Shown: positions 20,401 to 49,933 of the stretch, one piece after another
Numbering within the stretch: the first letter of the stretch is position 1
How the letters are laid out: each line of letters starts with the position of its first letter
Source of the DNA: a virus
Virus record (IMG/VR): IMGVR_UViG_3300046453_000063
Span: 64,001 to 128,000 of that record
Reading direction: 5' to 3' (one strand)
DNA: 64,000 nucleotides
The notes under the pieces: generated by a model
Seen by the model: the letters and a program-made list of their open reading frames with translations, nothing else
Told to the model about the DNA's origin: nothing
The model's database searches: none
Translations under genes and position numbers: made by a program

Positions 20401-21143
20401 TGAAGGGCGAGATAATGGACTTTCTCCATATCTTCTAATCGTTTAGCATTCGTGTTCAGAGCTGCAAAGTGAGCACGATCCATTGCCTCTGCTTCTTTTA
20501 GTCTTTGCTGTTCTTCTTTAAGTGCTTGATCAGCGATTGCCTTTAATTTTGCTTCTTGTTGTAGTTTGAGTTTTAAAAACTCTTCGAGTTGAGCAGATTT
20601 ATTTATATACCCATTTGCATCAGTATTAACAGTTAATGTTTGACCGGTATTAGCATTCTTATATGTATTAGTAATGCTATTTATTTCGCCAGCTTTATTT
20701 TTATTTGTTCTGGTCGAAACCTTTTCATAGCCCTCAAGTTGTGATTTTAAATCTGCCAGTGTCTTTCTCTGTGCATCGTATGCTTTATTTTCATCCTGGA
20801 CCGCTTTCTTATTGGCATCGTGTTTTATACGAGTTTTCTCAATCATCGCTCCACTTTCGAGTGTTTGCTGAGTAACTTTAGTAATACTGCCATCAAGATT
20901 TTTCATCTCAGTTATTGTTTCTTTGACAACTCTATTCTGAGACTCCATGATTGTATTAAATTTCTTAGATGCATCCACAAATCCGTTTATCGCAGAGATA
21001 AAACTTTTATCAATGTCAATTTTAAGTTCGAGTTTTTTTAGTGATGGATGGTTTGCTAGGGTAGAAATTGAGGAGTTAATGTCCTTCAAAGCTTGATCTG
21101 GCGACAACGCAGCAGAAATTAATATTTTCATATTATCAGCCAT
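14439..21143 (-). CDS. Tape measure protein with NlpC/P60 peptidoglycan hydrolase domain
   Basis: 2234 aa coiled coil; TP901-type TMP core (ELDTAMTNLKKVTD...VGQALKTISMRL); SDCSQFVQ/LQAGDLVFF/SHVGIY. Confidence 0.93.
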   Translation of the reverse strand: MADNMKILISAALSPDQALKDINSSISTLANHPSLKKLELKIDIDKSFISAINGFVDASKKFNTIMESQNRVVKETITEMKNLDGSITKVTQQTLESGAMIEKTRIKHDANKKAVQDENKAYDAQRKTLADLKSQLEGYEKVSTRTNKNKAGEINSITNTYKNANTGQTLTVNTDANGYINKSAQLEEFLKLKLQQEAKLKAIADQALKEEQQRLKEAEAMDRAHFAALNTNAKRLEDMEKVHYLALQRNREMDNRALQQYAKEAEAIDRAHYQALQTNQQRIEAADKQHYLALQQNQKRDQQYAQSVAETQNKINDARNKYSGNNKIITELNELETKLKSIKNMGDFKSPLSALNTDIRRTISNLTEVNGHTRTFGNSLKSAMSNILLYSGIGSVFFGITNAIRSGVQQIYELDTAMTNLKKVTDETSASYSRFLEYANQTANSIGGLTIDVVKASAEWARLGYSIQQAQSLAKETLVYQNVGDLASAEEASKSLISTIKGFNLEVDTQGKNITHIVDVFNEVGNKYAISSSGIGEALRRSAASMYESGNTIEQAVALATAANSTIQDPARVGQALKTISMRLRGISEDGEDLSSLVPTLEKKFAALGLTLKKDDNTFKSTYDIFSDLSGVWKDLNDFQKADILESVAGKLQGNIAASLINDFETAQKSLNTALNSTGSAARENETYLNSIAGRLNLLKNSIEKFWTSSINSSFIKGIVDSISYLIKSLDNLGNVVILISGLFLAFKSKAIAGLITSLMSTVKALFTTTVALESTAGAADTAAIAMTGLQRAFGWIGLAATALSVLYMVFHNNEGTIEKHNKLIEDSNKKYDDLTNSLAEAESYYKQNFDAINSNADVKDKLFEIQNKLVDTYGAEANGLDLVNGKYDDQIAKLKDLNKQKLEDQIKENQIIADSTNSTRYSKPTLGASLKSGMGFGTGYKVQDGGGQGTDLSLKEYYESLLDVQDKIRNKNTEIFASQSLIPKNAEEWELALNTVKDKITEIEPEYKQIANLEELRKEQLKQAGAEMFNLNDEQKKLYETITGITNKQPLNDLMKNFQGIAGYVSFFDGGNLDNVIANLKSIQQIKGNPDIVASLDAFAKSSAEAADKAKQASTQFVTLEDAIRALDGGLSGSNEQMTAFTKIIVSSKEEIDVLNKAQAELKDNNQLSASTIQEVSEKYSDFIKVTGLSKDAIYSFIKAKKEEKNAVIEAEIEKTSKSIDAIKDRITAMQQEYDMMVKLINAKADDLTVDNLRAEQRAIKSPYNDAKDELSALINKYNILTNTLSDFKTDTTESKKATDSNYDSISDTVEILTDLQKSLISIQKLRDEEENKRSRLRKGSQEYRDSLAKENKLIQEQIKLRKEGIANPSQLVSTKVTTTVKTKAGEDSSSTGSSSSSSGVSNLLASASALQGQFKYKQVAGEYKGTFDQFVEGATSDCSQFVQEMFKEFLNTTLPRTAAEQAKQGVAISKEQLQAGDLVFFNTTGKDNSHVGIYQGNGKFIQMGNSGLKESDLDSSYWSGKYQGARRVTGSSSTSTASSTTGNSTSKVGGTTVKTNGATAKEMQDASDNAVAQNTADANTIYQNNILQLDSIKEKYDRLVASAELQIEASKKVQDTLDPNSVEWRKENNKQINIQTQIQSLKAQEKSNLQAMMKELGVSSDEYDDFLIQLDTDVKDIQSDKLSGLTENINSQISASKKIISDIGNEVDVSKAKLSQFEKGTTEYNNELANQIKLTNQQRTANEDLIKFIETQTKNEKLSAATKVELKESIKELVLANYEYSTSIKDIKESYVDDVIDSYKKMVEKQKDLALKAIDKLKDAEDERHDARTKNIEKEYDDFEKVINAQQKALDDEISSDDYSTEQNKKIAERAKLQTRLDSLSKDDSIEGKAKAKELQEQIAESTEEIDKYKLDRTRELRKENLQKQLDDKKSITDTEKSIEDELNKANTKALELSTKEKEQYYTDILEDEQSYYLLKQKLLSEDSTVVTSALDDLKSKYKTFFDSIKTQIGETSKEYQNLLYTFNKDNEAITSYSGISGSGAGATTNPANTSSSSSSTKQAAWTQYLSNKQQAESIRAQMALLDKKSSQYASLESQFNNLAAQNTAYRNQYGFPDGSYEKLKNTAFSAETGGMTPAFSGGKFLLAHEKELVLDKFDTSKLLQIVNVARDIYDNFKSGFNNFNPSIATSTASSTSSTGNVYLNVKIDKLNTDESGVNTFFTKIQSEYKRRTGNK

Positions 21144-21301: not shown

Positions 21302-21796
21302 CTATTCAAAATATTTATCTAATTGCTCGTTAAGTTCCTTTTTGATTGCAATTAAATCATCGTCACTAATTTTTCTCTTTTTGCTTATCTGATATTTTTC
21401 ATCAGAGTCTTTATCTAAAAGTAAATCACCAGAAGTAGATACATTCAATATTTCTGAAATTGATTCGTGAACATCTTTGTACACCTCATATTTTTTATCA
21501 TCTGAATCTTTGAATTCTTCGACTGCTGCACCAATAAATTCATTGTATGTAGCAATTGATTCAGAGATATTTATATAATTGTTTTCAGGACCTTTCTCAT
21601 TCACTCCTTGTGATATGAAGGAGTAAGAGTCTGTTATCATTTCAACCAGGATATCATCATCTAAAAGTTTAACGTATTCAGATTTCATTTGAAGAGTGGG
21701 AGCACTAGAATTTTCTTGTTCACTACAACCACTCAATATAAAAACTCCACAAACAATTGTAATTACAAGAATTAATATCTTTCTCTGTTTCAACAT
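21302..21796 (-). CDS. Lipoprotein (moron, possible superinfection exclusion)
   Basis: Lipobox ILSG-C after basic plus hydrophobic N-terminus; own promoter near 21938-21965. Confidence 0.7.
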   Translation of the reverse strand: MLKQRKILILVITIVCGVFILSGCSEQENSSAPTLQMKSEYVKLLDDDILVEMITDSYSFISQGVNEKGPENNYINISESIATYNEFIGAAVEEFKDSDDKKYEVYKDVHESISEILNVSTSGDLLLDKDSDEKYQISKKRKISDDDLIAIKKELNEQLDKYFE

Positions 21797-22432: not shown

Positions 22433-23515
22433 CTATCTTTTCTTTTTACCGAACGATCCAGACGAACTTCCTTCTGGTTGTTCCGACTCATCTTTATCAA
22501 ATGTTGCATTAACATCAAATATCTTATTCTTTTCTTCTTCAAAGTCACGCAAATCATAGATCTGAGTTGTAGAGATATCATTATGATGAGCTACATATTT
22601 AGAAACAAGATGCATAGGAACTCCAGATTCAAGCAGATATGTAATACAAGAATTCTTAAAAATATGTACATTGATTCGGCGTTCAAGAATATCGGAAAGG
22701 GTGTTCATACAAAAATCATTTGCCCATGCAGAAGACATTGCTTTGGGTTCATGATCATATTTTGTAGTAAATACATATTCGCTTTCGTATCCTCTTTCAT
22801 CAATCCACTTTTTCCAATGTTTCAGAACTTCTAATTTGATCATATATTCTAGTTTTTTGCCGTCAGTCGAAGCTCCTTTTCCCCTAACAACATGAGACAT
22901 TACATAGTTCTGTCCTTCAACAACTGAATATTCGAGTATTTCAGTTTTAAACTGAATAATCTCTGCTCGTCTAGCACCAACCAGGAAGGCCGTAGCAAGC
23001 CATGCCATACCCAACCAGTTCTTATCACCTTCTAGTACACTCATCATCATGTCGTATTCTTCTTTGGTGACTTTAACCTTTTCATAAACACGATTACGGG
23101 GGATAGAAGGGAGGCCACGAGTAAAGTTTCTGAACATTTTATAGTTAGAATCATCTTCTGCTACAACATTCTCAATATAGTTGCACAAACTTGACACTAC
23201 AGACTTTCGAACGCCGATGGCAGAAGAAGACATCTTTCTGTTATCACGTATATAACTAAGATACCTAATAAAGTCACGCTTTGTAATTTCATAAAACTTC
23301 TTGTTGTTCATTGAGTTGAACATGTACCATCCGAATTGTCTCAATACACTTTTGTACTGTGATTTCGATTGAATACTCAAGTCCTGGACCGAGACGAATT
23401 CTTCTGCAAGGTTGCGATAGTCATCATTCACCTTGAGCCACATTTCTTCAGTTACTTCCTCTAATTTCTTAGCGGGTTCTCGCAACGTATTCTGCTTATT
23501 TACTTTCTTGCTCAT
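22433..23515 (-). CDS. yomM: Tyrosine recombinase, SPbeta YomM-like
   Basis: GARRAE (R), GKG (K), HIFK (HxxK variant), HH..STTQIY (Y); closely resembles recalled YomM sequence; same position in tail module. Confidence 0.85.
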   Translation of the reverse strand: MSKKVNKQNTLREPAKKLEEVTEEMWLKVNDDYRNLAEEFVSVQDLSIQSKSQYKSVLRQFGWYMFNSMNNKKFYEITKRDFIRYLSYIRDNRKMSSSAIGVRKSVVSSLCNYIENVVAEDDSNYKMFRNFTRGLPSIPRNRVYEKVKVTKEEYDMMMSVLEGDKNWLGMAWLATAFLVGARRAEIIQFKTEILEYSVVEGQNYVMSHVVRGKGASTDGKKLEYMIKLEVLKHWKKWIDERGYESEYVFTTKYDHEPKAMSSAWANDFCMNTLSDILERRINVHIFKNSCITYLLESGVPMHLVSKYVAHHNDISTTQIYDLRDFEEEKNKIFDVNATFDKDESEQPEGSSSGSFGKKKR

Positions 23516-23749: not shown

Positions 23750-24889
23750 TCAAAACTTGTTTTTAAGTCCATTACTATTTATGAAGTAATATATAAGACA
23801 AACATTTTTAAAATTTATTTTTTTCTTATGTATTCTTCTTGATATAAAATCTCCGAGATCTTTATTTGATTTTGAATTATTGCATGACTTACATGCTGGA
23901 ATTATATTGTTTTTAGTATACCCACCTTTTTTACTAATAGGGATGATGTGCTCTTGTTCAAGTGATTTGCCAGTTTTATCTAAGCATTCTTCATTGCTAA
24001 TTCCACAGTAAGCACATGAGTTGTTGAAGTATATTAAAGTTTCCGCATATTCATCAGTGGTTAAGTCATGAACTGTATTATTTTTCAATGATCTTCTCTT
24101 TTTTGCAAACTTAAGTTTTGACTTCTTAACGTCATCTCTTTGATGATATATTTTTCTCTTTTTTCTGGAACAATCTTCACATTTATTATATTTACTATAT
24201 TCTTCATCGGAAATCATTTTATTGCATTGACAACAAATCTTATATCCTTTTGGCAAAGTATCTTTATAAACCTTGTTTGGTCTGTCTACTCCGTAATCAA
24301 ACCCTCTACATTTTTTACATTTAGTTGATCCATTATCTCTATTATTTTTTTTGAAAAAGTAATAATCGTTGTCAGGTAATTCAACGTTGCATCCGTGACA
24401 TACTTTGTAATCATCTCGTATGCAGAATGACGATCTACAATCATTGAGACTATATAGATTAAATTTTGACGTTTCTCTCATACATTCCTTGCAACGACTT
24501 ACAAACCCCGTCTTCTGATTACATTTACCATTAGTTGGATTAAAATAGAATATATTTAACGGCAATACCCTATCGCATTTATTACAATAATGTTGACCAT
24601 TTTTATTAAAATTGGCATTTGCATTTCTACCCCACGAGTAGCTTGCGCCAGACTCACACTTTTTACATTGACTATGTAGTCTATGGTTTCCACTAGACTG
24701 AAAGTAGTATGTTGTTGCAGGTAATTTTTGTTTACATGTACAACACACATTTAACTCGCTATTCGCAATTAATTTTTCACTTTCTTTAACAAAATCATTG
24801 CGTATATGGAATATTAGTTTTCTAAATTGAGTCTTGTCGTCCAGTTCCCACGAAAAATACTCGTCTAGATTGGGTTGTTCTTGTTTCAA
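23750..24889 (-). CDS. HNH endonuclease with multiple CxxC zinc-finger repeats
   Basis: CAYCG...EQEHIIPISKKGG...NIIPACKSCNNSK; repeated CxxC...F...CxxC. Confidence 0.85.
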   Translation of the reverse strand: MKQEQPNLDEYFSWELDDKTQFRKLIFHIRNDFVKESEKLIANSELNVCCTCKQKLPATTYYFQSSGNHRLHSQCKKCESGASYSWGRNANANFNKNGQHYCNKCDRVLPLNIFYFNPTNGKCNQKTGFVSRCKECMRETSKFNLYSLNDCRSSFCIRDDYKVCHGCNVELPDNDYYFFKKNNRDNGSTKCKKCRGFDYGVDRPNKVYKDTLPKGYKICCQCNKMISDEEYSKYNKCEDCSRKKRKIYHQRDDVKKSKLKFAKKRRSLKNNTVHDLTTDEYAETLIYFNNSCAYCGISNEECLDKTGKSLEQEHIIPISKKGGYTKNNIIPACKSCNNSKSNKDLGDFISRRIHKKKINFKNVCLIYYFINSNGLKNKF

Positions 24890-24965: not shown

Positions 24966-25409
24966 TTATTTTCGTGTATTAATCCCTAATCTTTTTAACC
25001 CTTTAACAATAGCATGTTCAACGCTGCCATCATTACGCAACTCGTCTCTGGTCGTTTCTACAAATGGACGGCCTTTGTGCGTATAGGGGAAAGACCAATC
25101 TTCGTTATAACCCACACCAGTTTCAACAATTACTGATACGTTTCGATTGTCGTCCATGCGGTGTGACTCAATGGAGACTGTATTATTGTCAATCATTTCA
25201 ACAATAATATTAGCGTCATCCATTAAGCCGCCATTTTCTCTTAGTCGCTTATATATTACAGGCTCTTCATATACATCATAGACCTCGGATTGAATATTTT
25301 CTTTCATCTTTGGCCTGACTAGCTTTTCACCAACATCTTCTTTGAGTGTTTTGGGCAATACTTGCTGGTTTATATATTTGGCTAAATCGTTGACATTTTT
25401 AAAGTTCAT
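24966..25409 (-). CDS. Tail completion protein (HK97 gp10-like / YomN-like)
   Basis: EVYDVYEEP..YKR...GRPFVETTRDEL; position in tail module; likely ATG start MNFK. Confidence 0.6.
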   Translation of the reverse strand: MNFKNVNDLAKYINQQVLPKTLKEDVGEKLVRPKMKENIQSEVYDVYEEPVIYKRLRENGGLMDDANIIVEMIDNNTVSIESHRMDDNRNVSVIVETGVGYNEDWSFPYTHKGRPFVETTRDELRNDGSVEHAIVKGLKRLGINTRK

Positions 25410-25896
25410 CAGAATCAACTTCTACGTTTTCGGCTGTTTTTGCTTCTTGTAATGCTGCTTGAATTGCAAGTTCTGCTGTTGCTTCACCAATACCCTTTGA
25501 TACTTGTTCAAGTTTGGCTTTTACTTTCTCAATCTGATCCTTTGGAATATGATTATATACTTCGACTAGGATTCCATTATCAAGCAGATTATGTGTAAAT
25601 TTAATCAAGTTAGGAATATCATTTTTCTTCGGAATAGGAAGATCGGTGAACTCTCTAAGAATCAATGTATCCAGAAGTACAACGGTATTTTTAATTGTCT
25701 CATTGGTCACATTTTCACTTTTCTTCAAGTCTTCAAGGAGTCCAATGTAAGTCATAACCACATTCTCAATCAATGATTCACGGAAACTGGTATGAATAGA
25801 TACTTCATATTGACCATCAAGAATATGTGCTTTTTTAAGTTCATTGAATTTTGAACTAAGTTTATTTAACTCAGCAGCAGTAAGTTTTTTAGTCAT
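25399..25896 (-). CDS. Putative tail assembly chaperone (YomO-like)
   Basis: MTKKLT...ILREFTDL; synteny with SPbeta tail module. Confidence 0.55.
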   Translation of the reverse strand: MTKKLTAAELNKLSSKFNELKKAHILDGQYEVSIHTSFRESLIENVVMTYIGLLEDLKKSENVTNETIKNTVVLLDTLILREFTDLPIPKKNDIPNLIKFTHNLLDNGILVEVYNHIPKDQIEKVKAKLEQVSKGIGEATAELAIQAALQEAKTAENVEVDSDEL

Positions 25897-25934
25897 TTAT
25901 TTAATTCACTCCCATTAATATATTTATTTAATTA

Positions 25935-26591
25935 TTACGCCTTTGGAATTACAACATCTCTGATCTGTCTACCAGTCCAAGAACCAAGGAATAAATGATA
26001 CCCGTAAGCATCCTTATGCGGAATCACTTCTAATCTTTGATGTTGGAAAGAACAGAACGTATGGACTGGATATATAGTGACATCGCCTTTAAGCCATCTA
26101 TAACCATATTCATTTTCTCTAGTAACCCATGGTCTACTTAGTTGTGTAATAATATTTGTATTAGTGTTTTCACTATATGGACGATCATTATAGAAATCGA
26201 GCAACATTTTCACCCACTCATGACCTTTAACACTGCCCATAATAGCTGTAACCATTAGATCCTGAGTTTCATGACCAGTGAATGCACGAGTTTCAAGGAA
26301 TCTGTCTAATGGTTTAACGCAGAAAAAGTCCGAATCTACGTATACGCCCCCTATGGTTAGCAAGGCCCACAATCTTGCGATGTCGGTAGCAAAAGCATAC
26401 TTTTTACGCTTCAGTGCTTCTTGAACAAATGGATATTCATCGACTAGGAAGTTTGATTCGTTAATTTCGACAATTTCCCAAGTTGGATTGTGTTCTTTCC
26501 AACTAGCAATACATTTCTGTACCATTGGAGGTTTCTCGTTATTCCCAAACCAACAATATATCAATCTACGGTCGATAAGTTTTTTAGCCAT
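25935..26591 (-). CDS. Glycosyltransferase, GT32/OCH1-like (DXD sugar-binding)
   Basis: IYCWFG...CIASWK...YAFATDIARLWAL..GGVYVDSD...HLFLGSW; ATG at 26591 behind GAGGTG. Confidence 0.9.
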   Translation of the reverse strand: MAKKLIDRRLIYCWFGNNEKPPMVQKCIASWKEHNPTWEIVEINESNFLVDEYPFVQEALKRKKYAFATDIARLWALLTIGGVYVDSDFFCVKPLDRFLETRAFTGHETQDLMVTAIMGSVKGHEWVKMLLDFYNDRPYSENTNTNIITQLSRPWVTRENEYGYRWLKGDVTIYPVHTFCSFQHQRLEVIPHKDAYGYHLFLGSWTGRQIRDVVIPKA

Positions 26592-26592
26592 T

Positions 26593-27378
26593 TTACACCT
26601 CTGATCTACTAAGTCCAAAAGTTTTACGATAGTCTTTTAGTGTCCTGAACCAAAAATGGGGGTGTGGAACATTATTATTTGACCACGGCTTATCTCCTGC
26701 ATAGTGCATAATTCTAACTTTATCTCGTTCAACGTTTAGCCCCGCCGAAATTGATACGTTATATTTATTATCAATCAATAATATCTTCTTCTTACAAGTC
26801 TTGTTCAAAATGCATTGGTCGTGGGCCGGAAATTTCTTGGTGTTTGCTTCGTAAATCCATTTCTCTTGAAGATGATCTTCCCTAATTTTCTTCAGATTCA
26901 TTAGTAATACTCCAGCATTAACATATACATCTTTGTCAGTTAATCCCAACGGTTTCTTCAAATTGTAATGATCTGCATGAATATCTAACGCTCCAGCAAT
27001 ATAATAATCATCAATATTTGTATTGTATAAATCAGTTACATCGCCAACAACCAAAGCGTCTGCATCAATATGAAGCAGCTTATCATCATCGACAAGAGTT
27101 GGAAGTATCAATCTATACAGTGCATACCTTGTAAATCTAGAACTTACGTTCACTGTGCTAGGAATCAACTCTTTGAATTTATCCTCAGCATTAATAAACT
27201 CAATTTTGCATCTGTCACCAAAGTAATCTGTAATATAACTAGCATCAAAAATTCCATCTTTATCAGATATCAAATACACCTTGATATTTCCTTCATTGGT
27301 TTTGAATATAGAATATGTCTCAACCGCTGCCCACTCAGCCCAATTGGGGCTATATATAATAGCAATATTCATAGTCAT
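26593..27378 (-). CDS. Glycosyltransferase family 8
   Basis: YRLILP..LLHIDADALV, YVNAGVLLMNL, HDQCILN, IMHYAGDKPW. Confidence 0.92.
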   Translation of the reverse strand: MTMNIAIIYSPNWAEWAAVETYSIFKTNEGNIKVYLISDKDGIFDASYITDYFGDRCKIEFINAEDKFKELIPSTVNVSSRFTRYALYRLILPTLVDDDKLLHIDADALVVGDVTDLYNTNIDDYYIAGALDIHADHYNLKKPLGLTDKDVYVNAGVLLMNLKKIREDHLQEKWIYEANTKKFPAHDQCILNKTCKKKILLIDNKYNVSISAGLNVERDKVRIMHYAGDKPWSNNNVPHPHFWFRTLKDYRKTFGLSRSEV

Positions 27379-27431
27379 GTTAACGATCTCCCTGTAAATT
27401 TTATAGATTTATTTTTATTATATATTCTAAA

Positions 27432-28199
27432 TTACATATCCTTACTCATAATATGTTTTGAAAACGTTGAAACATCGCACCACAACTCGAATCCTTGATC
27501 TTGAGCCATCTTACAAAAATAAGCATCTTCACCTTGAGGATGGTATCCAAACTTCACATTTTTATAAACATTTTTATCTAATAGAAAAACTGCACCTGTT
27601 AAGTCAACTTTATATAATTTCTGTTCTGTTAATGTGGAGGCATTCTTAACATAGTAATTAGAGATATGCTTGTATTGTCCGTTTTCTTCGAGCTTCATAA
27701 TGTTCGGATACTTATGTGGTGCTTCAGGAGATACCAAATAACCATTATATATAAGTGATGATATAATATTTTTATCTGCATTGAGCAAATTGTTAATTAT
27801 ATCATCGGGAACTAAAATATCAGAATCAATAAACAGGAGTTTATCTGTATTGACTTTAGACATGATATGATTCTTCAAAATACTCAAGTGATTGTATATA
27901 TATTCATTTCTGACTTTTGTGCTACGAATATCTTCGGGAACTTTTCGATTCATTGTTTCGATTGTAATAGAGTTGTATTCATTATTATGCAATTGTTTGA
28001 ATTGACGTAAAATTGATTCTGTTTTATCCGTACTGTCATTAATAAGAAAATAGAGTGAGATAAGATTCTTTGGATATGAGATGTTATTAATATGATCAAG
28101 ATATTTATCAATAACAAAATCTCGGTTGCGACATGCTGCCGCTATGGTGATTGATTGATTAAGTGGAGGAGACGGAGAAGACTGTTCAATTTGTGGCAT
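27432..28199 (-). CDS. Glycosyltransferase, GT-A fold (GT2/Anp1-like)
   Basis: FLINDSTD, LLFIDSDIL (DxD), TGAVFLL, GEDAYFC, terminal H. Confidence 0.85.
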   Translation of the reverse strand: MPQIEQSSPSPPLNQSITIAAACRNRDFVIDKYLDHINNISYPKNLISLYFLINDSTDKTESILRQFKQLHNNEYNSITIETMNRKVPEDIRSTKVRNEYIYNHLSILKNHIMSKVNTDKLLFIDSDILVPDDIINNLLNADKNIISSLIYNGYLVSPEAPHKYPNIMKLEENGQYKHISNYYVKNASTLTEQKLYKVDLTGAVFLLDKNVYKNVKFGYHPQGEDAYFCKMAQDQGFELWCDVSTFSKHIMSKDM

Positions 28200-28203
28200 A
28201 TTA

Positions 28204-29442
28204 TTACTCCCTGTTTAAATTATATTTATTGATTATATCTTTATATTTACTACCGTCTTTTCTGACTCTTGACAATGAACCGAAATCATATACATTCTCA
28301 AATTGACTTGTTTTTACTGTCCCTTTGCCAATGTTAAATACTATCCATGAATGACCAGTAGAGATATATTCTTTTGCAAATTCTATCATTTCAATAATTT
28401 TTGTTTCTGTTGGGATGTTGTCTTTTCCTGATATGATTCTTATTTCTTTCCATCCACGACGATGCAGGGCATATCTTCTTCTTTGTTCTTTTTTATCAAA
28501 TTCTTCTTGAGAAATAATTCCGAACTTTACCTTTCCATCATGCAATCCACCATCATATTCGATATATATTCTCTCTTCGGGAAAAGCGATGTCTAGAAAA
28601 GAGGAGTTGTATAAATGGTTTAACTCTCCGCCAACGATATTATGTATATATGCTTGTTGTAATGATACTGGCATACTGTTATTTTCCATAAGACTCTTAA
28701 AGGCTTTGGCTCTGATTTCAGGATTTTTCATGACGTTATCAAACCCAAATCTGCTGATTGTTGTCTCATCTTTTTTCTTTTTTGCGCACTCATCGCATCG
28801 AACATATCCCATACGAAATGAAATAACTGAATTAGACCATTTCTTTCCACAGGCACAAATAAAATCAACACGATTTAGTTGATTCAATAATTCATATTCT
28901 TCTTTTGTAGTGAGCAATGTACAACCACTGTTTGTAAATAGTGATTTTATATCGTCATATTTATTTTTTCTCTTTTTGCCAGCAACTTCGTGTCCGCATC
29001 GGCTACATCCATGGCCTGCCCGAATAGTGTCATATGCTACATAGCACAATTCTCCACACTGACATTCATAAGACACCTTTTCTTTTGCGGAAACGAATGA
29101 AGTTGAGATTAATTTATTCCCAAGTTTTTCAATGAACTCTTTTAAATAATCGTATTCGATTTTCTGCTTGCAGTCATCACAACAAAAATTAATAATTTTA
29201 GTGATAGATCGTATTTCTTGATTTAACCTTCTTCGATATTCTTTATAGGGCAATTGCATGGTGTTTTTGTGGCAATAATCGCATTCCACCAAAACTATTG
29301 AGTGACTCTTATTAGAAAGATGATTCACATTGACATCGATAGTGTCACCTATTTTACATTCGTATCCCATAGACAGAAGATGCTCAATGTTTAATTTCTT
29401 GCAACTAACCCTACGGCTTTTTGTTAATATTATTTTAAACAC
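28204..29442 (-). CDS. Putative homing endonuclease, zinc-binding repeats plus Vsr/EDxHD-like nuclease domain
   Basis: VECDYC, YECQCG..GCSRC repeats; LDIAFPEERIYIEYDGGLH...GWKEIRI. Confidence 0.75.
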   Translation of the reverse strand: MFKIILTKSRRVSCKKLNIEHLLSMGYECKIGDTIDVNVNHLSNKSHSIVLVECDYCHKNTMQLPYKEYRRRLNQEIRSITKIINFCCDDCKQKIEYDYLKEFIEKLGNKLISTSFVSAKEKVSYECQCGELCYVAYDTIRAGHGCSRCGHEVAGKKRKNKYDDIKSLFTNSGCTLLTTKEEYELLNQLNRVDFICACGKKWSNSVISFRMGYVRCDECAKKKKDETTISRFGFDNVMKNPEIRAKAFKSLMENNSMPVSLQQAYIHNIVGGELNHLYNSSFLDIAFPEERIYIEYDGGLHDGKVKFGIISQEEFDKKEQRRRYALHRRGWKEIRIISGKDNIPTETKIIEMIEFAKEYISTGHSWIVFNIGKGTVKTSQFENVYDFGSLSRVRKDGSKYKDIINKYNLNRE

Positions 29443-29462
29443 CTCTATTGATATTTAGATAT

Positions 29463-29500
29463 AAAAAAAGCCCATCCGCATTTTTAGAGTGGATGGGCTT
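29463..29500 (-). terminator. Intrinsic terminator after major tail gene
   Basis: AAGCCCATCC stem with U-tract on minus strand. Confidence 0.75.
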
Positions 29501-29517
29501 AATATATTTATCTTTTA

Positions 29518-30312
29518 TTAAGCCAAGTCGCTTTCGTCAAAGATATACATGGTATACAAATCTTTAGAACCAGGAACCGCCAACGCTTCCATTGGAATAT
29601 CCAAAACAGAAGGATCTCCATCTGGAGCCATGGTAAGATTGAATGAATCTTCAATCTTTGCAGAAGGGATAGTGATTTGTGCTGCATAATCAGATTTTGT
29701 CAGAACGTCACGAACAAGGACGTCCAAAACAAGTTTGTAACTTCCTGCAAATTTGTTAGTTTGAGCAGTCATCTTCTTTGTATCAACACCAGTAGTTGTT
29801 TCATAGTAAGCGATAATTTTAGATCCAGTCGGAATATCACCCGTAAAGAAACTAAGAGCTTTACCTGTTACTTTATATTGTCCTGTAGTTGGAGTTGATG
29901 CCGTATATGCAAAATCGTCTCCAAGTGTTCCGTCTGCCAAGAACAAGTTCACACTTTTAAGTGCGCCAGCAGCAGTAGGCGTATAATTGAGCGTTGCAGC
30001 ATTACTTGTTACTGTTAGCACATCGTTAACAATAATTGGTACGGCACCAGTTTCCACTTCTGTTCCCAGCATCATTGCGATCATTTCATTCGAAAAAAGA
30101 GCGTCTTGCAGAGTGAATCTTGCAGCTCTACTCCCAGAAAATCCCAGAATTTTAGGATTCCCAGACCCCCCCATTACATAAGTGACTTCCGATGAATTTT
30201 CGAGGCCACTGGATTTTAAACTGTCCAGCTTTACCTTAAGTTTTCCTGTTGTCAAATCAAAAAATGATGCCGTAGCGACATCACGAATAGCCCAACGGTT
30301 TGTTGTTGCCAT
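29518..30312 (-). CDS. Major tail (tube) protein
   Basis: RWAIRDVA...LKSSGLE...GGSGNP...IPSAKI...GDPSVLDI; AGGAGG SD; followed by terminator. Confidence 0.82.
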   Translation of the reverse strand: MATTNRWAIRDVATASFFDLTTGKLKVKLDSLKSSGLENSSEVTYVMGGSGNPKILGFSGSRAARFTLQDALFSNEMIAMMLGTEVETGAVPIIVNDVLTVTSNAATLNYTPTAAGALKSVNLFLADGTLGDDFAYTASTPTTGQYKVTGKALSFFTGDIPTGSKIIAYYETTTGVDTKKMTAQTNKFAGSYKLVLDVLVRDVLTKSDYAAQITIPSAKIEDSFNLTMAPDGDPSVLDIPMEALAVPGSKDLYTMYIFDESDLA

Positions 30313-31539: not shown

Positions 31540-32769
31540 TTAATACAACGGTTTAATCCTAACTCTCTTCATTACAATACTCTTACCATCAACATCTCCA
31601 GCAATCAATTGTACATATCCAACTTTGCTTCCAGCCAGCACAGTAAATGTATTTGTAACACTATCTTGAGCACTAATACTAGCCAAAGTTGTCACACTTA
31701 CTCCATCGTCAGCTTTCAATGAAATTACACTTTCATCAGTATACTCAACACCATTGTCATAAAAATTAATGACATAGGATTGACTCTTACCAACCGTAAT
31801 CTCATCTTTACCAACAATATCACAAGTATAATTATGTGTGACGACATCAGTGATGTTAACTTGAATAGACGCTGTTTGACCTTTAAATGATACATCAATT
31901 ATTACAATTCCAGACCTCAGAGGGGTAACGAGACCTGTAGTTGATACTGTAGCTACATCCTCAAAATCAATTGAATAAACTAAGACAGGAGACTCTATAA
32001 TTTGATCGTTGTTTTTTGCTTGAACATTAAGTTGCAATGTCTGATCTGCGCTGATTGTCACGTTGTCACCATTCAATATAGTTAAACTATAATCAGAGAC
32101 ATTATTATAATAATCAGCAATACCAAGTTCAACATTATCCAAGTCTTTATTGATCAGGTTCTCTTCGAGGGTTAGAGTTATAATTCCGTCTATTAATCTA
32201 TTGACTCCAATAACACGCCAGGCGCGACCATCGACAATAAACCGTTTATTCTTTTCAATCTTTCTAGTGTATATAGTATCCTGAATTGTTAATTCTCTAC
32301 GCTCATTGGGGAGGATTAATACTCGACCATCTTCAATACCAAAACTAGATGTACTATTTGATTGCATGCAGAACCAAGATGATCTTATATCACCATTTTC
32401 GTCTAGCCATTTAATTGACGAATAACAGCGTAAAATAATTCCTCGATCGTATATACCGCCAAGTTGATAGTCATTTTGAATTGTAAGCCAGTATTCATTA
32501 TTCCAATAGTAGAGATATCCGACATCTACAGATTGACCAGGAATAGCCGTAACGATTTTCTGACTTTTTAATTCAGAGTCGTCGGTAATCCAAACATCAG
32601 TAGGAGTGGAGGATAGGGGAGTGGAGGGAGTGGAGACAGAGATGTTGTAGTAGGATGGATGATCAAAAAACGCACCAGTAATTTTACGCTTAGTATCAGT
32701 AATTCTAGAGTCTCTAATTGTTGATCCATAAGTAGTGTTTCTTGCATTAAATATGTCTAAATAAGACAT
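31540..32769 (-). CDS. Head closure/connector protein with Ig-like (Big_2) domain
   Basis: VGYLYYWNNEYWL N-domain; VATVSTTGLVTP Ig-like motif. Confidence 0.65.
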   Translation of the reverse strand: MSYLDIFNARNTTYGSTIRDSRITDTKRKITGAFFDHPSYYNISVSTPSTPLSSTPTDVWITDDSELKSQKIVTAIPGQSVDVGYLYYWNNEYWLTIQNDYQLGGIYDRGIILRCYSSIKWLDENGDIRSSWFCMQSNSTSSFGIEDGRVLILPNERRELTIQDTIYTRKIEKNKRFIVDGRAWRVIGVNRLIDGIITLTLEENLINKDLDNVELGIADYYNNVSDYSLTILNGDNVTISADQTLQLNVQAKNNDQIIESPVLVYSIDFEDVATVSTTGLVTPLRSGIVIIDVSFKGQTASIQVNITDVVTHNYTCDIVGKDEITVGKSQSYVINFYDNGVEYTDESVISLKADDGVSVTTLASISAQDSVTNTFTVLAGSKVGYVQLIAGDVDGKSIVMKRVRIKPLY

Positions 32770-47332: not shown

Positions 47333-49933
47333 TTACTGTTTTCTTTGTTTTTTCCTATACTGTCTTTGTTTTTCGGCATTATATTTCTTCCATTCTTCTT
47401 TTTGACAGTGCTTGCAATAGATTTGATTATTTGTGTTTACTTCAATTCTAGTCCCACAAGACTTGCATAGGACTTTTTCTAAACTATCAATAGTGTTACT
47501 TTTAATATTCTCAACAATAACATCTCCAAAACTAGACCACAGTGTTGTCTTATAGCTACTTTTCTTTTTTTCATACAAGAATTGTACTAGCACATCGACT
47601 ACATGATCTACATCATTACAAACTTCCAATATCTTGTCTCTAATGTTTTTATAAACAAACAAACTATCTCCCGTATAGTGACCATCAACCGGACGAGTAT
47701 CCATAAATCGCTTTTTAAGGTCTAATTCCTTATATCTTTCAATGATTTGATTGTCTATGTCTCTCTTAGCATACTCTTTACTCATCAACACCTTGTAATC
47801 AAATTCTCCTATATTCATTGCAGAGAATTTAATTCTTGGATTAGGGATAAGTTTACCAAGCCTATTGACCACGCTCTCATTAACTGGTTCTACATTAGGT
47901 TTTTCTTTGTCTTTTGCATATACAAAGAAATAGGGTGTTTTAGACTTTGTATATTCGGTAATTATTTTTTTCTTGTTATTCGGTCTTTCTGGTTTGTACA
48001 AAGTTTTTGCGTAATCAATTGTAAAATTGTTCTCCATACATAATAGTTTGATCACATCCAGGTTAACGTTGTTACTATTCCAGATCTTCGTGATGTCGTT
48101 ACTGATCATCCCAATATTGCCACCAGTATAAGCAGACTTTAATCCTTCATATATAGTCTCATAATTAACAGGTTGTGCTTCTGCTTTTGCCATGTTGTAG
48201 AATAGGGGGTTAATACCTTTCATATTTCTTTCTGCAACTTCTACGATAGTTTTATCATTACAAACTAAACTTTTATCTCCATCAACGTCAAACATGAGTA
48301 TTTTACTGATAGCATCATGACAACTTGTATATAGATTCTTAGTGACGAACCAGCGTTTCATTTCTTTATTTACTTTATTTTTTCGGACAGCGTGTTCCCG
48401 GTATAGATGAGGGCTACGTAAACAATCAAGTTTTTCCTCATCATTATAAAGGAAGCAAGAAACTTCTCCATCATCAATCAACCCTTTGGGGTCTTTATCG
48501 TCCTTAATTAAGTATTCACAAAAAGCATGTAAATCTGGACATATGAATGTGTATTTGCCGCTTATTGAGATCTTCCCGGCTTTTGCAGACATTACCATGC
48601 TCTTTTTAGTCTGCTTAAGGATTTCTTTGCTATATGTATCATTTAATAGTTCTGGATAAATCTCAAGCGCTTGCTGGACATAGTTTTTGTTTATATTTGT
48701 TTCTGTAGCACCAAGTATTTTAAGCATGGTGCGCCGATCTGTTCCAACATTAATGATATTGTTTCTAGTTTCTTCACTAATCGTTCTTAACTCATCATCG
48801 GTGATGTCTGTTAGGGTTTGAAGCATTTGATAATTCAACTTGGCATTCTTAATGAATGATTCTTCTTCGTTGCACTTTCCTGCATGGCATTTAAACTTTT
48901 TATAAAATTTCTTGTACTCATCCCAGGAAGAATAGTACTTCCACATTTTAAACTGGCTTTTTGTGAATATTATTTCAATTTTTTCAGCGTTTAGATCATG
49001 CTCTTTACCATAAATATCTTTAACGGTGCCGTAGAGTCCTTTTTTTGCCTTCTTGTTTTCTTCACGAATGAATTTATCGAAAGGAAAAGGGACTAACAAA
49101 CCTTTTACCCAAGGCAGACGCACCATTATACTATTCTTACTAACTCTTGGCAGGATCATTCCACAACCATCTGTGTGTTCGATGGGAATGTCCATATTCT
49201 TTGTTTCAATTTCATATGTCTTGTCATCAATGAAGTCAACAGTACAGTTAACAAGTGTTTCCATGTCATTGACCACGATAGATTTGTCAATATCAAACTC
49301 ATCCCATTTTTCCGTTGCACTATTGCAGAGAGCAAGATAGGCTAGATACTTGTTAATATTGACTCCTTTATGATCATTAATCTTTTTAATGGTAAGACCA
49401 CACATCAGCGATTGTTGATATTTATTAAATGTTTTTTCTTTAATGAATACCGTTTTCTTCGTTCTAATTTGTCCCGCGCTTGCTGTAAAGCATATGTATT
49501 TTTCATTATCAAAGATAAATCCATTATGTATAAGATCTTTTAAAATATCAAAAAAGTAAGTTTGAACAACAAGTATGTCTTTGGTTAAAGTATTCTGTTT
49601 AATCTTTAGAGTTCTTGTTAATACGGAGTCGAATACTGAAATCGTATTTTTTTCTCTAATCAACTCACTACGCAAAACTCTAAGTTCTTCATTTTTTGTA
49701 AATAGTTTGTACAGTGTATCCTTTAGATTTTTAATTCGAGTGGAAGTCCTTGAGATTTTTTCTTCAAATCTTTTTTTTGTGTCGTCTTCAATGTGAGCTG
49801 ATTTTATTTTACCTTTTAATAAATATCGAAATCTGTAGTTCTTATTTAATCTTCTATGTATGGACATTTCACTTTCGTTATAAAAGAAACTGGTATCGAT
49901 GCTGTATACATGGACTTGTTTGTCTAGGCTAAT
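47333..49933 (-). CDS. yonO: YonO-type single-subunit DNA-dependent RNA polymerase
   Basis: TASAGQIRTKK, HTDGCGM, RLPWVKGLL, RSPHLYREH, catalytic FDVDGD; frame extends to ATT at 49933 behind AGGAGG. Confidence 0.93.
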   Translation of the reverse strand: MSLDKQVHVYSIDTSFFYNESEMSIHRRLNKNYRFRYLLKGKIKSAHIEDDTKKRFEEKISRTSTRIKNLKDTLYKLFTKNEELRVLRSELIREKNTISVFDSVLTRTLKIKQNTLTKDILVVQTYFFDILKDLIHNGFIFDNEKYICFTASAGQIRTKKTVFIKEKTFNKYQQSLMCGLTIKKINDHKGVNINKYLAYLALCNSATEKWDEFDIDKSIVVNDMETLVNCTVDFIDDKTYEIETKNMDIPIEHTDGCGMILPRVSKNSIMVRLPWVKGLLVPFPFDKFIREENKKAKKGLYGTVKDIYGKEHDLNAEKIEIIFTKSQFKMWKYYSSWDEYKKFYKKFKCHAGKCNEEESFIKNAKLNYQMLQTLTDITDDELRTISEETRNNIINVGTDRRTMLKILGATETNINKNYVQQALEIYPELLNDTYSKEILKQTKKSMVMSAKAGKISISGKYTFICPDLHAFCEYLIKDDKDPKGLIDDGEVSCFLYNDEEKLDCLRSPHLYREHAVRKNKVNKEMKRWFVTKNLYTSCHDAISKILMFDVDGDKSLVCNDKTIVEVAERNMKGINPLFYNMAKAEAQPVNYETIYEGLKSAYTGGNIGMISNDITKIWNSNNVNLDVIKLLCMENNFTIDYAKTLYKPERPNNKKKIITEYTKSKTPYFFVYAKDKEKPNVEPVNESVVNRLGKLIPNPRIKFSAMNIGEFDYKVLMSKEYAKRDIDNQIIERYKELDLKKRFMDTRPVDGHYTGDSLFVYKNIRDKILEVCNDVDHVVDVLVQFLYEKKKSSYKTTLWSSFGDVIVENIKSNTIDSLEKVLCKSCGTRIEVNTNNQIYCKHCQKEEWKKYNAEKQRQYRKKQRKQ

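What the first reader, a model, noticed from the sequence alone, without database searches (positions are those of the whole stretch)
25935..28199. Three-glycosyltransferase cassette inside the tail morphogenesis operon: candidate virion glycosylation system
Seen: GT2/Anp1-like, GT8 and GT32-like genes lie in tandem, co-oriented, between the major tail protein (one endonuclease gene intervenes) and the tail chaperones. None has a TM segment or signal peptide, and no GtrA flippase or GtrC-type membrane transferase is present, so this is not a classic gtr surface-conversion operon. The location is also far from the replication genes. Known: some mycobacteriophages use phage-encoded GT trios to O-glycosylate capsid and tail-tube subunits. 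Inference: these enzymes are made late, with the structural proteins, and build an oligosaccharide (initiating plus two elongating GTs) on virion proteins. I know of no such system in SPbeta-like Bacillota phages. Candidate acceptors: the Thr-rich insert of the tail tube (YTASTPTTG, YETTTG) and Ser/Thr linkers in the TMP and connector.
Basis: partly seen in the sequence, partly recalled or inferred. Interest (0 to 1): 0.85.

Follow-up and report, generated by a model that had tools for sequence, protein, structure and literature searches.

The report
Sugar-transferase trio in phage tail operon
A large SPbeta-like Paenibacillus phage carries three soluble sugar-adding enzymes between its tail-tube and tail-chaperone genes, a slot that about 19 related phages also fill with such enzymes, so the phage probably sugar-coats part of its own particle, though the target protein is not identified and nothing has been tested at the bench.

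Summary
Three co-oriented, tightly packed genes encode soluble GT-A glycosyltransferases: Anp1/GT2-like at 27432-28199, GT8 at 26593-27378 and GT32-like at 25935-26591. They lie between the tail tube gene (plus one HNH homing endonuclease) and the tail chaperone pair of a complete 164-kb SPbeta-like phage, probably of Paenibacillus.

New evidence: 19 related IMG/VR loci keep the Anp1-like enzyme in the same slot. Its partners differ: GT8+GT32 here, one or two GT4-type enzymes elsewhere. Five cultured relatives have no GT there. Distant homologues of the Anp1-like enzyme also sit in virion modules of unrelated viruses, one directly upstream of a tail tube gene.

A YonO-type late RNA polymerase gene lies upstream. 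The genome has no GtrA and no hydroxymethylase, and it carries a separate classical surface-modification moron.

Best reading (about 0.5): late virion-protein glycosylation, with a conserved initiating enzyme and swappable elongating enzymes.

Weak points: there are no Ser/Thr C-terminal tags, the enzyme does not co-vary with the adjacent tail tube, the fold does not reveal the acceptor, and no expression data exist.

This scan has already noted the same arrangement in another genome, and many analogous candidates in other phages.

The parts
27432..28199 (-). Anp1/GT2-like GT-A glycosyltransferase (255 aa). This is the conserved member of the cassette and the proposed initiating enzyme.
   Evidence: Pfam Anp1 at 1e-13. 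DxD (D125, D127), an E-D pair (E224, D225) and H249 are invariant in 15 homologues. The model has a GT-A fold. It is 54-66% identical to a gene at the same slot in 19 loci.
26593..27378 (-). GT8 glycosyltransferase (261 aa), proposed elongating enzyme.
   Evidence: PF01501 at 9e-28. DxD (D105, D107) and H225 are invariant. The profile matches LgtC, the pneumococcal GT8 entry 5gvv and WbbM. 87% identical to a Paenibacillus tianjinensis protein.
25935..26591 (-). GT32-like glycosyltransferase (218 aa from the ATG at 26591), proposed elongating enzyme.
   Evidence: PF04488 at 2e-14 and PF05704 at 2e-13. Start revised from the sequence. 88% identical to a P. tianjinensis protein. Found on contigs of the same lengths as GT8 homologues (3587, 4825 and 9226 bp, and 6.27 Mb), so probably the same contigs.
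28204..29442 (-). HNH homing endonuclease inserted between the tail tube gene and the first GT gene.
   Evidence: phrog_12131 and phrog_559. Present at this point in only some relatives (L084; an unannotated 378-aa ORF in L119), and elsewhere in the cassette in L121.
29518..30312 (-). Tail tube protein with an inserted beta-sandwich domain.
   Evidence: phrog_2729. Model pLDDT 78.5. Foldseek match to the SPR tail tube entries 8xkn and 8ygm at E 1e-14.
29462..29500 (-). Terminator-like hairpin followed by a U-run, directly after the tail tube stop codon.
   Evidence: Free energy -20.6 kcal/mol, z -4.8. Hairpins of the same kind can be seen by eye after the tail tube stop in nearly all 15 related loci.
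25399..25896 (-). Tail assembly chaperone, first frame (chapA).
   Evidence: phrog_7383. Syntenic with SPbeta yomO.
24966..25418 (-). Tail assembly chaperone, second frame (chapB). A CTT-TAA-A site at 25399-25405 could join it to chapA by a +1 frameshift.
   Evidence: phrog_19892. Sequence read directly. The frameshift is an inference.
31540..32769 (-). YomX-family structural protein with a C-terminal extension of about 190 aa that looks like two Ig-like domains (by eye). Candidate acceptor.
   Evidence: The extension is present in 18 of 18 GT-bearing loci and absent from 5 of 5 GT-less relatives. This correlation is confounded by phylogeny.
47333..49867 (-). YonO-type single-subunit RNA polymerase, upstream of and co-oriented with the structural array.
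   Evidence: 52% identical to the phi3T/SPbeta homologue; yonO position in SPBc2; YonO transcribes the SPbeta late genes as one operon (PMC5467207).
5391..6434 (+). Multi-TM Acyl_transf_3 O-acyltransferase on the opposite strand: a classical surface-modification moron, included for contrast.
   Evidence: PF01757 at 1.6e-35. Several TM-like windows.

Best explanation
The three genes form a late-expressed cytoplasmic glycosylation cassette that decorates one or more of the phage's own virion or tail-assembly proteins.

Proposed mechanism. The conserved Anp1-like GT-A enzyme puts the first sugar on the acceptor, using a host nucleotide sugar. The GT8 and GT32-like enzymes, whose families consist of retaining enzymes by general CAZy knowledge, then extend it into a short glycan. 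In sister phages the two elongating enzymes are replaced by GT4-type enzymes, so the glycan differs between phages while the attachment chemistry is kept.

Shown here: the enzyme families and their catalytic motifs, their solubility, the recurrence at this slot, the partner swapping and the late-operon context.

Inferred: the timing of expression, the order of action and the protein nature of the acceptor.

The acceptor is unidentified. Candidates are the exposed insert of the tail tube, the Ig-like extension of the YomX-family protein, and the Ser/Thr linkers of the tape measure protein.
For: 1. Slot conservation. All 19 related IMG/VR loci have tail tube, then the Anp1-like GT (54-66% identity), then one or two further GT genes, then chapA and chapB. 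This holds although their tail tubes are only 25-67% identical to the window's.
2. Partner swapping. The partners are GT8+GT32 here and GT4-type (Glyco_trans_1 families) elsewhere.
3. Baseline architecture. Four cultured relatives (Sundance, 949, PJN02, E3) have tail tube followed directly, or after one small ORF, by the chaperones. SPbeta fills the slot with PBSX-like tail fibre genes, that is, with another virion accessory.
4. Unrelated viruses. Distant homologues of the Anp1-like GT also sit in virion modules:
   - L123: a GT, then the Anp1-like GT, directly upstream of a phrog_2729 tail tube gene.
   - L122: between the portal gene and the protease/capsid genes.
   - Archaeal virus PhiF1: just upstream of the annotated structural and capsid genes.
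5. Late-operon context. Short gaps, good ribosome-binding sites and shared orientation within the structural array, downstream of a YonO homologue.
6. Gene content. There are no other GT2- or GT4-type (PF00535, PF00534) genes, no epimerase and no GtrA, and the GTs have no TM segment. The phage's real surface-modification moron has a different layout: opposite strand and membrane-embedded.
7. Precedent. Mycobacteriophages glycosylate capsid and tail tube subunits with their own tandem GTs (Freeman 2023, as cited in PMC11600133, PMC12363180 and PMC12619734).
Against: - There is no chemical or expression evidence.
- Capsid and tail tube share no Ser/Thr C-terminal tag. This differs from mycobacteriophages and from the poly-Thr systems this scan noted elsewhere.
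- Divergence of the Anp1-like GT does not track the adjacent tail tube (Spearman 0.15). Examples: L087 against L088, GT 95% and tube 30%; L089 against L094, GT 80% and tube 23%.
- At least four capsid types occur among the GT-bearing phages.
- Fold matches tie protein-directed enzymes (COLGALT1), mannan enzymes (Mnn9), lipid-directed enzymes (ArnC, GtrB) and teichoic-acid enzymes (TarS, TarP, RmlT) within about 2 Z units.
- One distant homologue (L126) lies beside a nucleotide-sugar epimerase with no structural gene visible on its 9.6-kb contig.
- A terminator-like hairpin separates the cassette from the tail tube gene.
- All 19 GT-bearing loci belong to one clade, so they are not 19 independent events.
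Confidence: 0.5

Rival explanations
1. The GTs modify a host cell-envelope glycopolymer on the cytoplasmic face (wall teichoic acid, secondary cell-wall polymer or a lipid-linked precursor). This is how the soluble prophage enzyme TarP and the host enzymes TarS and RmlT work. The effect would be to change the phage receptor, either for superinfection exclusion or to stop progeny sticking to debris.
For: The Anp1-like GT model aligns to TarS (Z 14.8), TarP (Z 14.2) and RmlT (Z 14.2), almost as well as to its best hit at Z 16.1. Soluble GT-A enzymes can act on lipid-linked polymers, so the absence of a TM segment does not exclude this reading. The GT8 and GT32 families are mostly polysaccharide or LPS enzymes; the nearest NCBIfam hit for the GT8 is an LPS galactosyltransferase, far below its cut-off. 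The phage is temperate-type and its named homologues lie in Paenibacillus chromosomes.
Against: The cassette lies inside the late structural array, not in a moron layout, whereas the phage's Acyl_transf_3 moron does have that layout. The Anp1-like GT is a single 255-aa domain with no extra acceptor-binding or oligomerisation domain. Its distant homologues keep turning up next to tail tube, portal and capsid genes in unrelated viruses, including an archaeal virus whose host has a different wall. No flippase or membrane partner is present.
Confidence: 0.2
2. The cassette is cargo in a recombination hot spot and its target is not a structural component. It could modify another phage or host protein, or a small molecule, for example as an anti-defence or take-over function. 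The position next to the tail genes would then reflect only where insertions are tolerated.
For: The junction between tail tube and chaperone genes accepts unrelated inserts: HNH endonucleases, PBSX-like fibre genes in SPbeta, and GTs here. An exact 13-mer flanks the HNH-plus-GT block. GT and tail tube phylogenies are discordant. One partner GT in L092 matches the Pfam family 'GT4 in conflict systems'.
Against: The Anp1-like GT is kept at this slot across phages whose neighbouring genes have diverged to 25-30% identity, and its catalytic motifs are invariant. That argues for a selected function tied to this module. PADLOC finds nothing. Independent virion-module placement in L122, L123 and PhiF1 is hard to explain by hot-spot tolerance alone.
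Confidence: 0.2
3. The GTs glycosylate phage DNA (a hypermodified base) to evade restriction, as the T4 alpha- and beta-glucosyltransferases and the multi-GT systems described in 2024 do.
For: Phages do use tandem GTs on DNA (Pyle 2024, cited in PMC12619734). The genome carries one thymidylate-synthase-family gene.
Against: That gene passes NCBIfam equivalog cut-offs for genuine thymidylate synthase (426 bits against a cut-off of 327), so it is not a hydroxymethylase. The three genes are the only members of the GT families searched (PF00535, PF00534), and they lie in the late tail operon, well apart from that nucleotide-metabolism gene, which lies about 22 kb before the window's start. No Tet/JBP match was found, but that search had no positive control and is inconclusive.
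Confidence: 0.05

Closest known systems
Mycobacteriophage virion O-glycosylation (Che8, Corndog, Myrna; Freeman et al. 2023, Cell Host Microbe, known here only through citing papers PMC11600133, PMC12363180, PMC12619734)
   Same: Tandem phage-encoded soluble glycosyltransferases (three in cluster O) in a siphovirus. The proposed targets are major virion subunits. Host nucleotide sugars are used.
   Different: - The host phylum is Bacillota, not Actinomycetota.
- No mycobacteriophage hit was found for the Anp1-like GT or the GT8 at E 1e-5.
- No methyltransferase partner was seen next to the cassette.
- Capsid and tail tube carry no C-terminal Ser/Thr acceptor tail.
- The slot (tail tube to chaperone) and the swapping of elongating enzymes are specific to this clade.
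- Glycosylation has not been shown here.
Cytoplasmic sequential O-glycosylation of serine-rich-repeat adhesins in streptococci (GtfA/B plus GT8 enzymes such as GlyE; PDB 5gvv; the pathway details are from general knowledge)
   Same: Soluble GT8 enzymes, together with GT4-type enzymes, build short glycans on a protein in the cytoplasm of a Gram-positive cell. The window's GT8 profile matches 5gvv at E 7e-25, and sister phages use GT4-type partners.
   Different: No serine-rich-repeat acceptor and no accessory Sec system is present. The initiating enzyme here is an Anp1-like GT-A, not GtfA/B.
TarP/TarS/RmlT wall-teichoic-acid glycosyltransferases (TarP is prophage-encoded in Staphylococcus aureus)
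   Same: GT-A catalytic fold, soluble, and phage-borne in the case of TarP. Z 14.2-14.8 to the model.
   Different: Those enzymes carry extra C-terminal domains and work singly, and tarP is expressed from the prophage. Here there are three single-domain enzymes inside the late tail operon.
gtrABC serotype-conversion operons of temperate enterobacterial phages
   Same: Phage-encoded glycosylation genes in a temperate-type phage.
   Different: No GtrA, no TM segment in any of the three GTs, and a location that is not near the attachment site or at a moron position.

Membership tests
CAZy GT8 (Pfam PF01501) | Whole-protein score above the Pfam gathering cut-off | tested here: met
   97.9 bits against a cut-off of 24.3, covering model positions 1-252 of 253.
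CAZy GT8 (Pfam PF01501) | DxD motif and C-terminal metal-binding His conserved | tested here: met
   D105, D107 and H225 are invariant in 14 homologues. LgtC is the best PDB profile match at 1.4e-25.
GT32-like (Pfam PF04488 Gly_transf_sug) | Sugar-binding region with DxD scoring above the cut-off | tested here: met
   54.5 bits against a cut-off of 23; Caps_synth 50.9 against 24.5. PDB sequence matches are confined to a DxD stretch of about 35 residues.
Anp1/Mnn9 (GT62) or GT2 | Pfam score above the cut-off | tested here: met
   Anp1 PF03452 scores 51.8 bits against 28.8. GT2 PF00535 scores 21.3 against 23.3, below its cut-off. Mnn9 is the top VIA match (Z 16.1, rmsd 3.2 over 200 residues), but it ties with GT2 enzymes. 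The CAZy family assignment therefore remains ambiguous.
Mycobacteriophage-type virion glycosylation system | Glycans demonstrated on capsid and tail tube subunits | not testable with these tools
   This needs virion MS or glycostain.
Mycobacteriophage-type virion glycosylation system | [quoted passage not shown] | tested here: not met
   The tail tube ends ...FDESDLA and the capsid ends ...YTFSS here. Relatives end ...YKFS...YKFA...YKLTT...IVLT and others, with no shared tag.
Mycobacteriophage-type virion glycosylation system | GTs homologous to Che8 or Corndog GTs | tested here: inconclusive
   tblastn against 50,697 phage records found no mycobacteriophage hit for the Anp1-like GT or the GT8 at 1e-5. 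The GT32-like query hit one unexamined Mycobacterium phage record at E <= 1e-3. No profile or structure comparison to Che8 gp110 was possible.
gtrABC serotype conversion | GtrA flippase and membrane-embedded GtrC | tested here: not met
   No PF04138 match in the 164-kb genome, with the control positive in 8 genomes. No TM-like window in the three GTs.
Phage DNA glycosylation | A pathway making a hydroxymethylated pyrimidine as the acceptor | tested here: not met
   The only thymidylate-synthase-family gene passes equivalog cut-offs for true thymidylate synthase. The Tet/JBP search had no positive control and is inconclusive.
TarP/TarS-type teichoic-acid GT | GT-A domain plus a C-terminal acceptor-binding or trimerisation domain | tested here: inconclusive
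   The catalytic fold is similar (Z 14.2-14.8). The protein is a single domain of 255 aa. Polymer binding was not tested.
SPbeta-like phages | YomM-type recombinase in the tail operon, YonO RNA polymerase, SPR-type tail tube, giant tape measure protein with a lysin domain | tested here: met
   YomM 60-63% identity; YonO 52%; tail tube fold; 2234-aa tape measure protein matching phrog_4211 and a lysin phrog.

The most novel reading that the evidence does not exclude
The Anp1-like enzyme defines a virus-specific family of protein glycosyltransferases that tailed viruses of Bacillota, and even of methanogenic archaea, place inside their virion modules. In the Paenibacillus SPbeta-like clade it would start a glycan on a tail or neck component without any C-terminal tag, and swappable elongating enzymes would diversify that glycan between phages. 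The glycan could serve adsorption or particle stability. Alternatively it could hide newly made tail tube subunits from intracellular sensors such as DSR2, which is known to be triggered by the homologous SPR tail tube (PDB entries 8ygc, 8zc9).
Probability: 0.15. Interest if true: 0.8.

Novelty: new variant of a known kind. Interest (0 to 1): 0.55.

Why it matters
Virion glycosylation has been shown experimentally only in mycobacteriophages, where it alters antibody recognition. If it were confirmed in SPbeta-like phages of Bacillota, the phenomenon would extend to a genetically tractable phage group.

Such a system would use different enzymes and apparently a different acceptor logic (no terminal tags), and it would show natural swapping of elongating enzymes that diversifies the particle's glycan.

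It would also supply a conserved marker gene, the Anp1-like GT, for finding such systems in viromes, and a possible link to defence systems that sense tail tube proteins.

All of this is still inference from gene context.

Tried and rejected
The genomic contexts of the 164 Anp1-like and 28 GT8 homologues therefore could not be fetched, and the P. tianjinensis prophage could not be read.
- The genome-contig scan with the GT8 alignment used generic GT8 motifs and returned only hits of 41% identity or less in unrelated bacteria.
- The single-protein GT8 scan of viral contigs found nothing.
- The metagenome scan gave only two loci.
- A megablast of 6 kb against cultured phages found no match.
- Freeman et al. 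2023 is not held. It is cited only through other papers.
- No RNA holder is listed for this DNA.
- PADLOC gave no hit for the three GTs.
- The fold searches first suggested collagen hydroxylysine galactosyltransferase (Foldseek E 5e-12). The exhaustive aligner then tied it with Mnn9, ArnC, TarS and others, so I dropped it as an argument for a protein acceptor.
- Collagen-like repeats were looked for in the 853-aa fibre protein. None were found; the protein has NTA/NAD-type repeats followed by a long C-terminal region.
- The junction-dyad motif reported by earlier notes is not notably enriched and does not bracket the cassette.
- No complex-prediction job was sent, because enzyme-substrate pairs are poor candidates for that test.
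- Three literature searches for virion glycosylation in Bacillota or SPbeta-like phages found no description.
Full report
WHAT IS THERE. The window is bases 64001-128000 of a complete 163,994-bp virus record with direct terminal repeats. The nearest DNA holder is a rhizosphere metagenome, which may be the source sample.

The minus strand from about 46.5 kb down to 1 kb carries one co-oriented structural and lysis array. Its genes, in order, are:
- terminase 38614-40362
- portal 37043-38554
- capsid 33765-34766 (assigned by position, size and similarity to annotated capsid or structural genes of relatives)
- head-tail joining genes
- tail tube 29518-30312
- HNH endonuclease 28204-29442
- three glycosyltransferase genes
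- two chaperone genes, 25399-25896 and 24966-25418
- a second HNH gene
- a YomM-type tyrosine recombinase, 22433-23515
- a lipoprotein gene
- a 2234-aa tape measure gene, 14439-21143
- Dit, Tal and fibre genes
- holin and endolysin

The three glycosyltransferases are confirmed by Pfam:
- Anp1-like, 27432-28199: 51.8 bits. GT2 scores just under its cut-off.
- GT8, 26593-27378: 97.9 bits.
- GT32-like Gly_transf_sug, 25935-26618: 54.5 bits.

Reading the DNA, each gene has a GGAG-type ribosome-binding site. The GT32-like gene more plausibly starts at the ATG at 26591, one base after the GT8 stop. The gaps are 4 nt (HNH to first GT), 53 nt, about 1 nt, and 38 nt to chapA. None of the three proteins has a TM-like hydrophobic window. 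Catalytic DxD motifs and other invariant acidic and His residues are conserved in both families that I aligned. GC content matches the surroundings.

WHAT KIND OF PHAGE. The recombinase is 60-63% identical to YomM of SPbeta, phi3T and the Goe phages. The 844-aa ORF at 47333-49867 is 52% identical to the phi3T/SPbeta protein at the yonO position. The predicted tail tube fold matches the solved tail tube of the SPbeta-like phage SPR (E 1e-14, TMq 0.70).

The host is very probably Paenibacillus. The closest homologues of all three GTs (93%, 87% and 88% identity) lie on a 6.27-Mb Paenibacillus tianjinensis contig. Nearly all named homologues of the Anp1-like GT are from Paenibacillus genomes; the exceptions are two partial Cellulosimicrobium entries.

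THE KEY COMPARATIVE RESULT. Searching IMG/VR with the tail tube and with the Anp1-like GT gave 19 related loci on contigs of 47-218 kb. A tblastn synteny map and ORF calls show the same order in every one: tail tube, Anp1-like GT (54-66% identity to the window's), one or two further genes of 323-400 aa, chapA, chapB, usually the YomM-type recombinase, then the tape measure gene.

Pfam identifies all ten of those further genes that I sampled as GT-B enzymes of the Glyco_trans_1/GT4 type. The slot and the first enzyme are thus conserved, while the second and third enzymes have been replaced non-homologously (GT8 plus GT32-like here).

The GT8 and GT32-like pair itself recurs. Homologues of both lie on contigs of the same lengths (3587, 4825 and 9226 bp, and the P. 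tianjinensis chromosome), which are probably the same contigs.

Cultured relatives lack this arrangement. Brevibacillus phage Sundance, Lactococcus phage 949 and Bacillus phage PJN02 go directly from tail tube to chaperones, and Geobacillus virus E3 has one small ORF there. SPbeta fills the slot with PBSX-like tail fibre genes, youA to yomP. Among 50,697 phage records the Anp1-like GT has a single homologue, in the archaeal virus PhiF1.

BEYOND THE CLADE. Three distant homologues of the Anp1-like GT are also embedded in virion modules:
- In L123 (39% identity) a GT and then the Anp1-like GT lie immediately upstream of a phrog_2729 tail tube gene, downstream of the capsid gene.
- In L122 (31%) the gene lies between the portal gene and the protease/capsid genes.
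- In PhiF1 (32%) it lies just upstream of the annotated structural and capsid genes.

A fourth homologue, L126 (35%), sits near a nucleotide-sugar epimerase. No structural gene is visible on its 9.6-kb contig.

TIMING (INFERENCE). In SPbeta, YonO transcribes the structural and lysis genes as one operon starting upstream of yonK (PMC5467207). The window has the YonO homologue in the corresponding place and orientation. A strong terminator-like hairpin follows the tail tube stop codon (-20.6 kcal/mol, z -4.8), and hairpins of the same kind are visible in the related loci. The GTs therefore lie in the lower-expression part of the operon together with the chaperones, which suits enzymes. The consensus promoter scan is not enriched over shuffled sequence. 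No RNA data are available.

RIVALS.
- A gtr-type system is excluded: there is no GtrA and no TM segment.
- DNA glycosylation is unlikely. The only thymidylate-synthase-family gene is a genuine thymidylate synthase by NCBIfam equivalog cut-offs. The three genes are the only members of the GT families searched (PF00535, PF00534), and they sit in the tail operon.
- Modification of a host wall polymer cannot be excluded. The exhaustive structural comparison ties Mnn9, ArnC, COLGALT1, WrtF, PcManGT, TarS, TarP and RmlT within about two Z units, so the fold says nothing about the acceptor. However, the phage's own Acyl_transf_3 gene shows what a surface-modification moron looks like in this genome: opposite strand and multi-TM. 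The GT trio does not look like that.
- A 'cargo in a hot spot' reading is supported by the variety of inserts at this junction and by an exact 13-mer flanking the HNH-plus-GT block. It does not explain why the Anp1-like GT is retained while its neighbours diverge to 25-30% identity.

THE ACCEPTOR REMAINS OPEN. Capsid and tail tube have no shared Ser/Thr C-terminal tag. This differs from the mycobacteriophage case as described in the citing papers and from the poly-Thr systems that this scan noted in other phages.

Pairwise identities of the Anp1-like GT correlate poorly with those of the adjacent tail tube (Spearman 0.15). Examples are GT 95% with tube 30% (L087 against L088) and GT 80% with tube 23% (L089 against L094). 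Correlations are better with the YomW-like p158 (0.75), the recombinase (0.83, n=10) and the capsid (0.69, n=8). These figures are not corrected for mosaicism or phylogeny.

The one correlate I found is a C-terminal extension of about 190 residues, which looks like two Ig-like domains, on the YomX-family protein at 31540-32769. It is present in 18 of 18 GT-bearing loci and absent in 5 of 5 GT-less relatives. This is confounded by shared ancestry and is offered only as a candidate.

COMPARISON WITH WHAT IS KNOWN, AND NOVELTY. The closest known system is mycobacteriophage virion glycosylation. The working principle proposed here is the same, but two membership features were tested: C-terminal acceptors were not met, and GT homology was inconclusive.

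The cytoplasmic glycosylation pathway of serine-rich-repeat adhesins offers an enzymological parallel (GT8 plus GT4 enzymes acting on a protein). Three literature searches found no description of such a cassette in SPbeta-like or other Bacillota phages.

This scan has already flagged the same arrangement in another genome (e1-5357370) and many analogous candidates in other phage groups, so the idea is not unique within the scan.

I rate the finding as a new variant of a known kind, of moderate to good interest. Confidence in virion-protein glycosylation is about 0.5, because every step beyond gene context is inferred.

Noticed in passing
window 25399-25405 (minus strand): The chapA gene ends CTT-TAA-A, and the chapB frame continues from AAA. 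This resembles the prfB CUU-UGA-C +1 frameshift site and could produce a chapA-chapB fusion, the counterpart of the G/GT tail chaperone pair.
   Followed up: partly
window 25915-25927 and 29499-29511 (minus strand): The exact 13-mer ATAAATATATTAA occurs directly after the tail tube stop and directly after the GT32 stop, so it brackets the HNH-plus-GT block. Only these two exact copies occur in 64 kb. With up to one mismatch there are 8 matches against 1.3 expected. It could be a recombination scar or a shared post-gene signal.
   Followed up: partly
window 31540-32769 (minus strand); L082-L121: The YomX-family structural protein is about 400 aa in all GT-bearing Paenibacillus-type phages, because of a C-terminal extension that looks like two Ig-like domains. 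It is 216-255 aa in SPbeta, E3, Sundance, 949 and PJN02. The window's copy also has an STP-rich stretch at residues 38-58 that is not conserved.
   Followed up: partly
window 21302-21796 (minus strand): A 164-aa predicted lipoprotein (signal peptide ending LSGC) lies just upstream of the tape measure gene, in the position where SPbeta has yomK and yomJ ('immunity protein'). It may be a superinfection-exclusion lipoprotein.
   Followed up: no
window 5391-6434 (plus strand): A multi-TM Acyl_transf_3 O-acyltransferase lies on the opposite strand between the tail fibre and lysis genes. This is a typical lysogenic-conversion moron for surface-polysaccharide acetylation.
   Followed up: partly
window 22433-23515 (minus strand); L084-L121: The YomM-type tyrosine recombinase in the tail operon is 75-80% identical across loci whose structural proteins are only 25-50% identical. 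That makes it far the most conserved gene of the module. Its role in a tail operon is unexplained.
   Followed up: no
window 28204-29442, 23750-24889, 3617-4801 (minus strand): Three HNH or homing-endonuclease genes are scattered through the late operon. Related loci have them at different junctions, for example inside the GT cassette in L121.
   Followed up: no
window 29518-30312 (minus strand): The tail tube is a structural homologue of the SPR tail tube, which triggers the DSR2 defence system (PDB 8ygc, 8zc9, 8z18 appear among the fold matches). Whether modification of the tube would affect such sensing is open.
   Followed up: no
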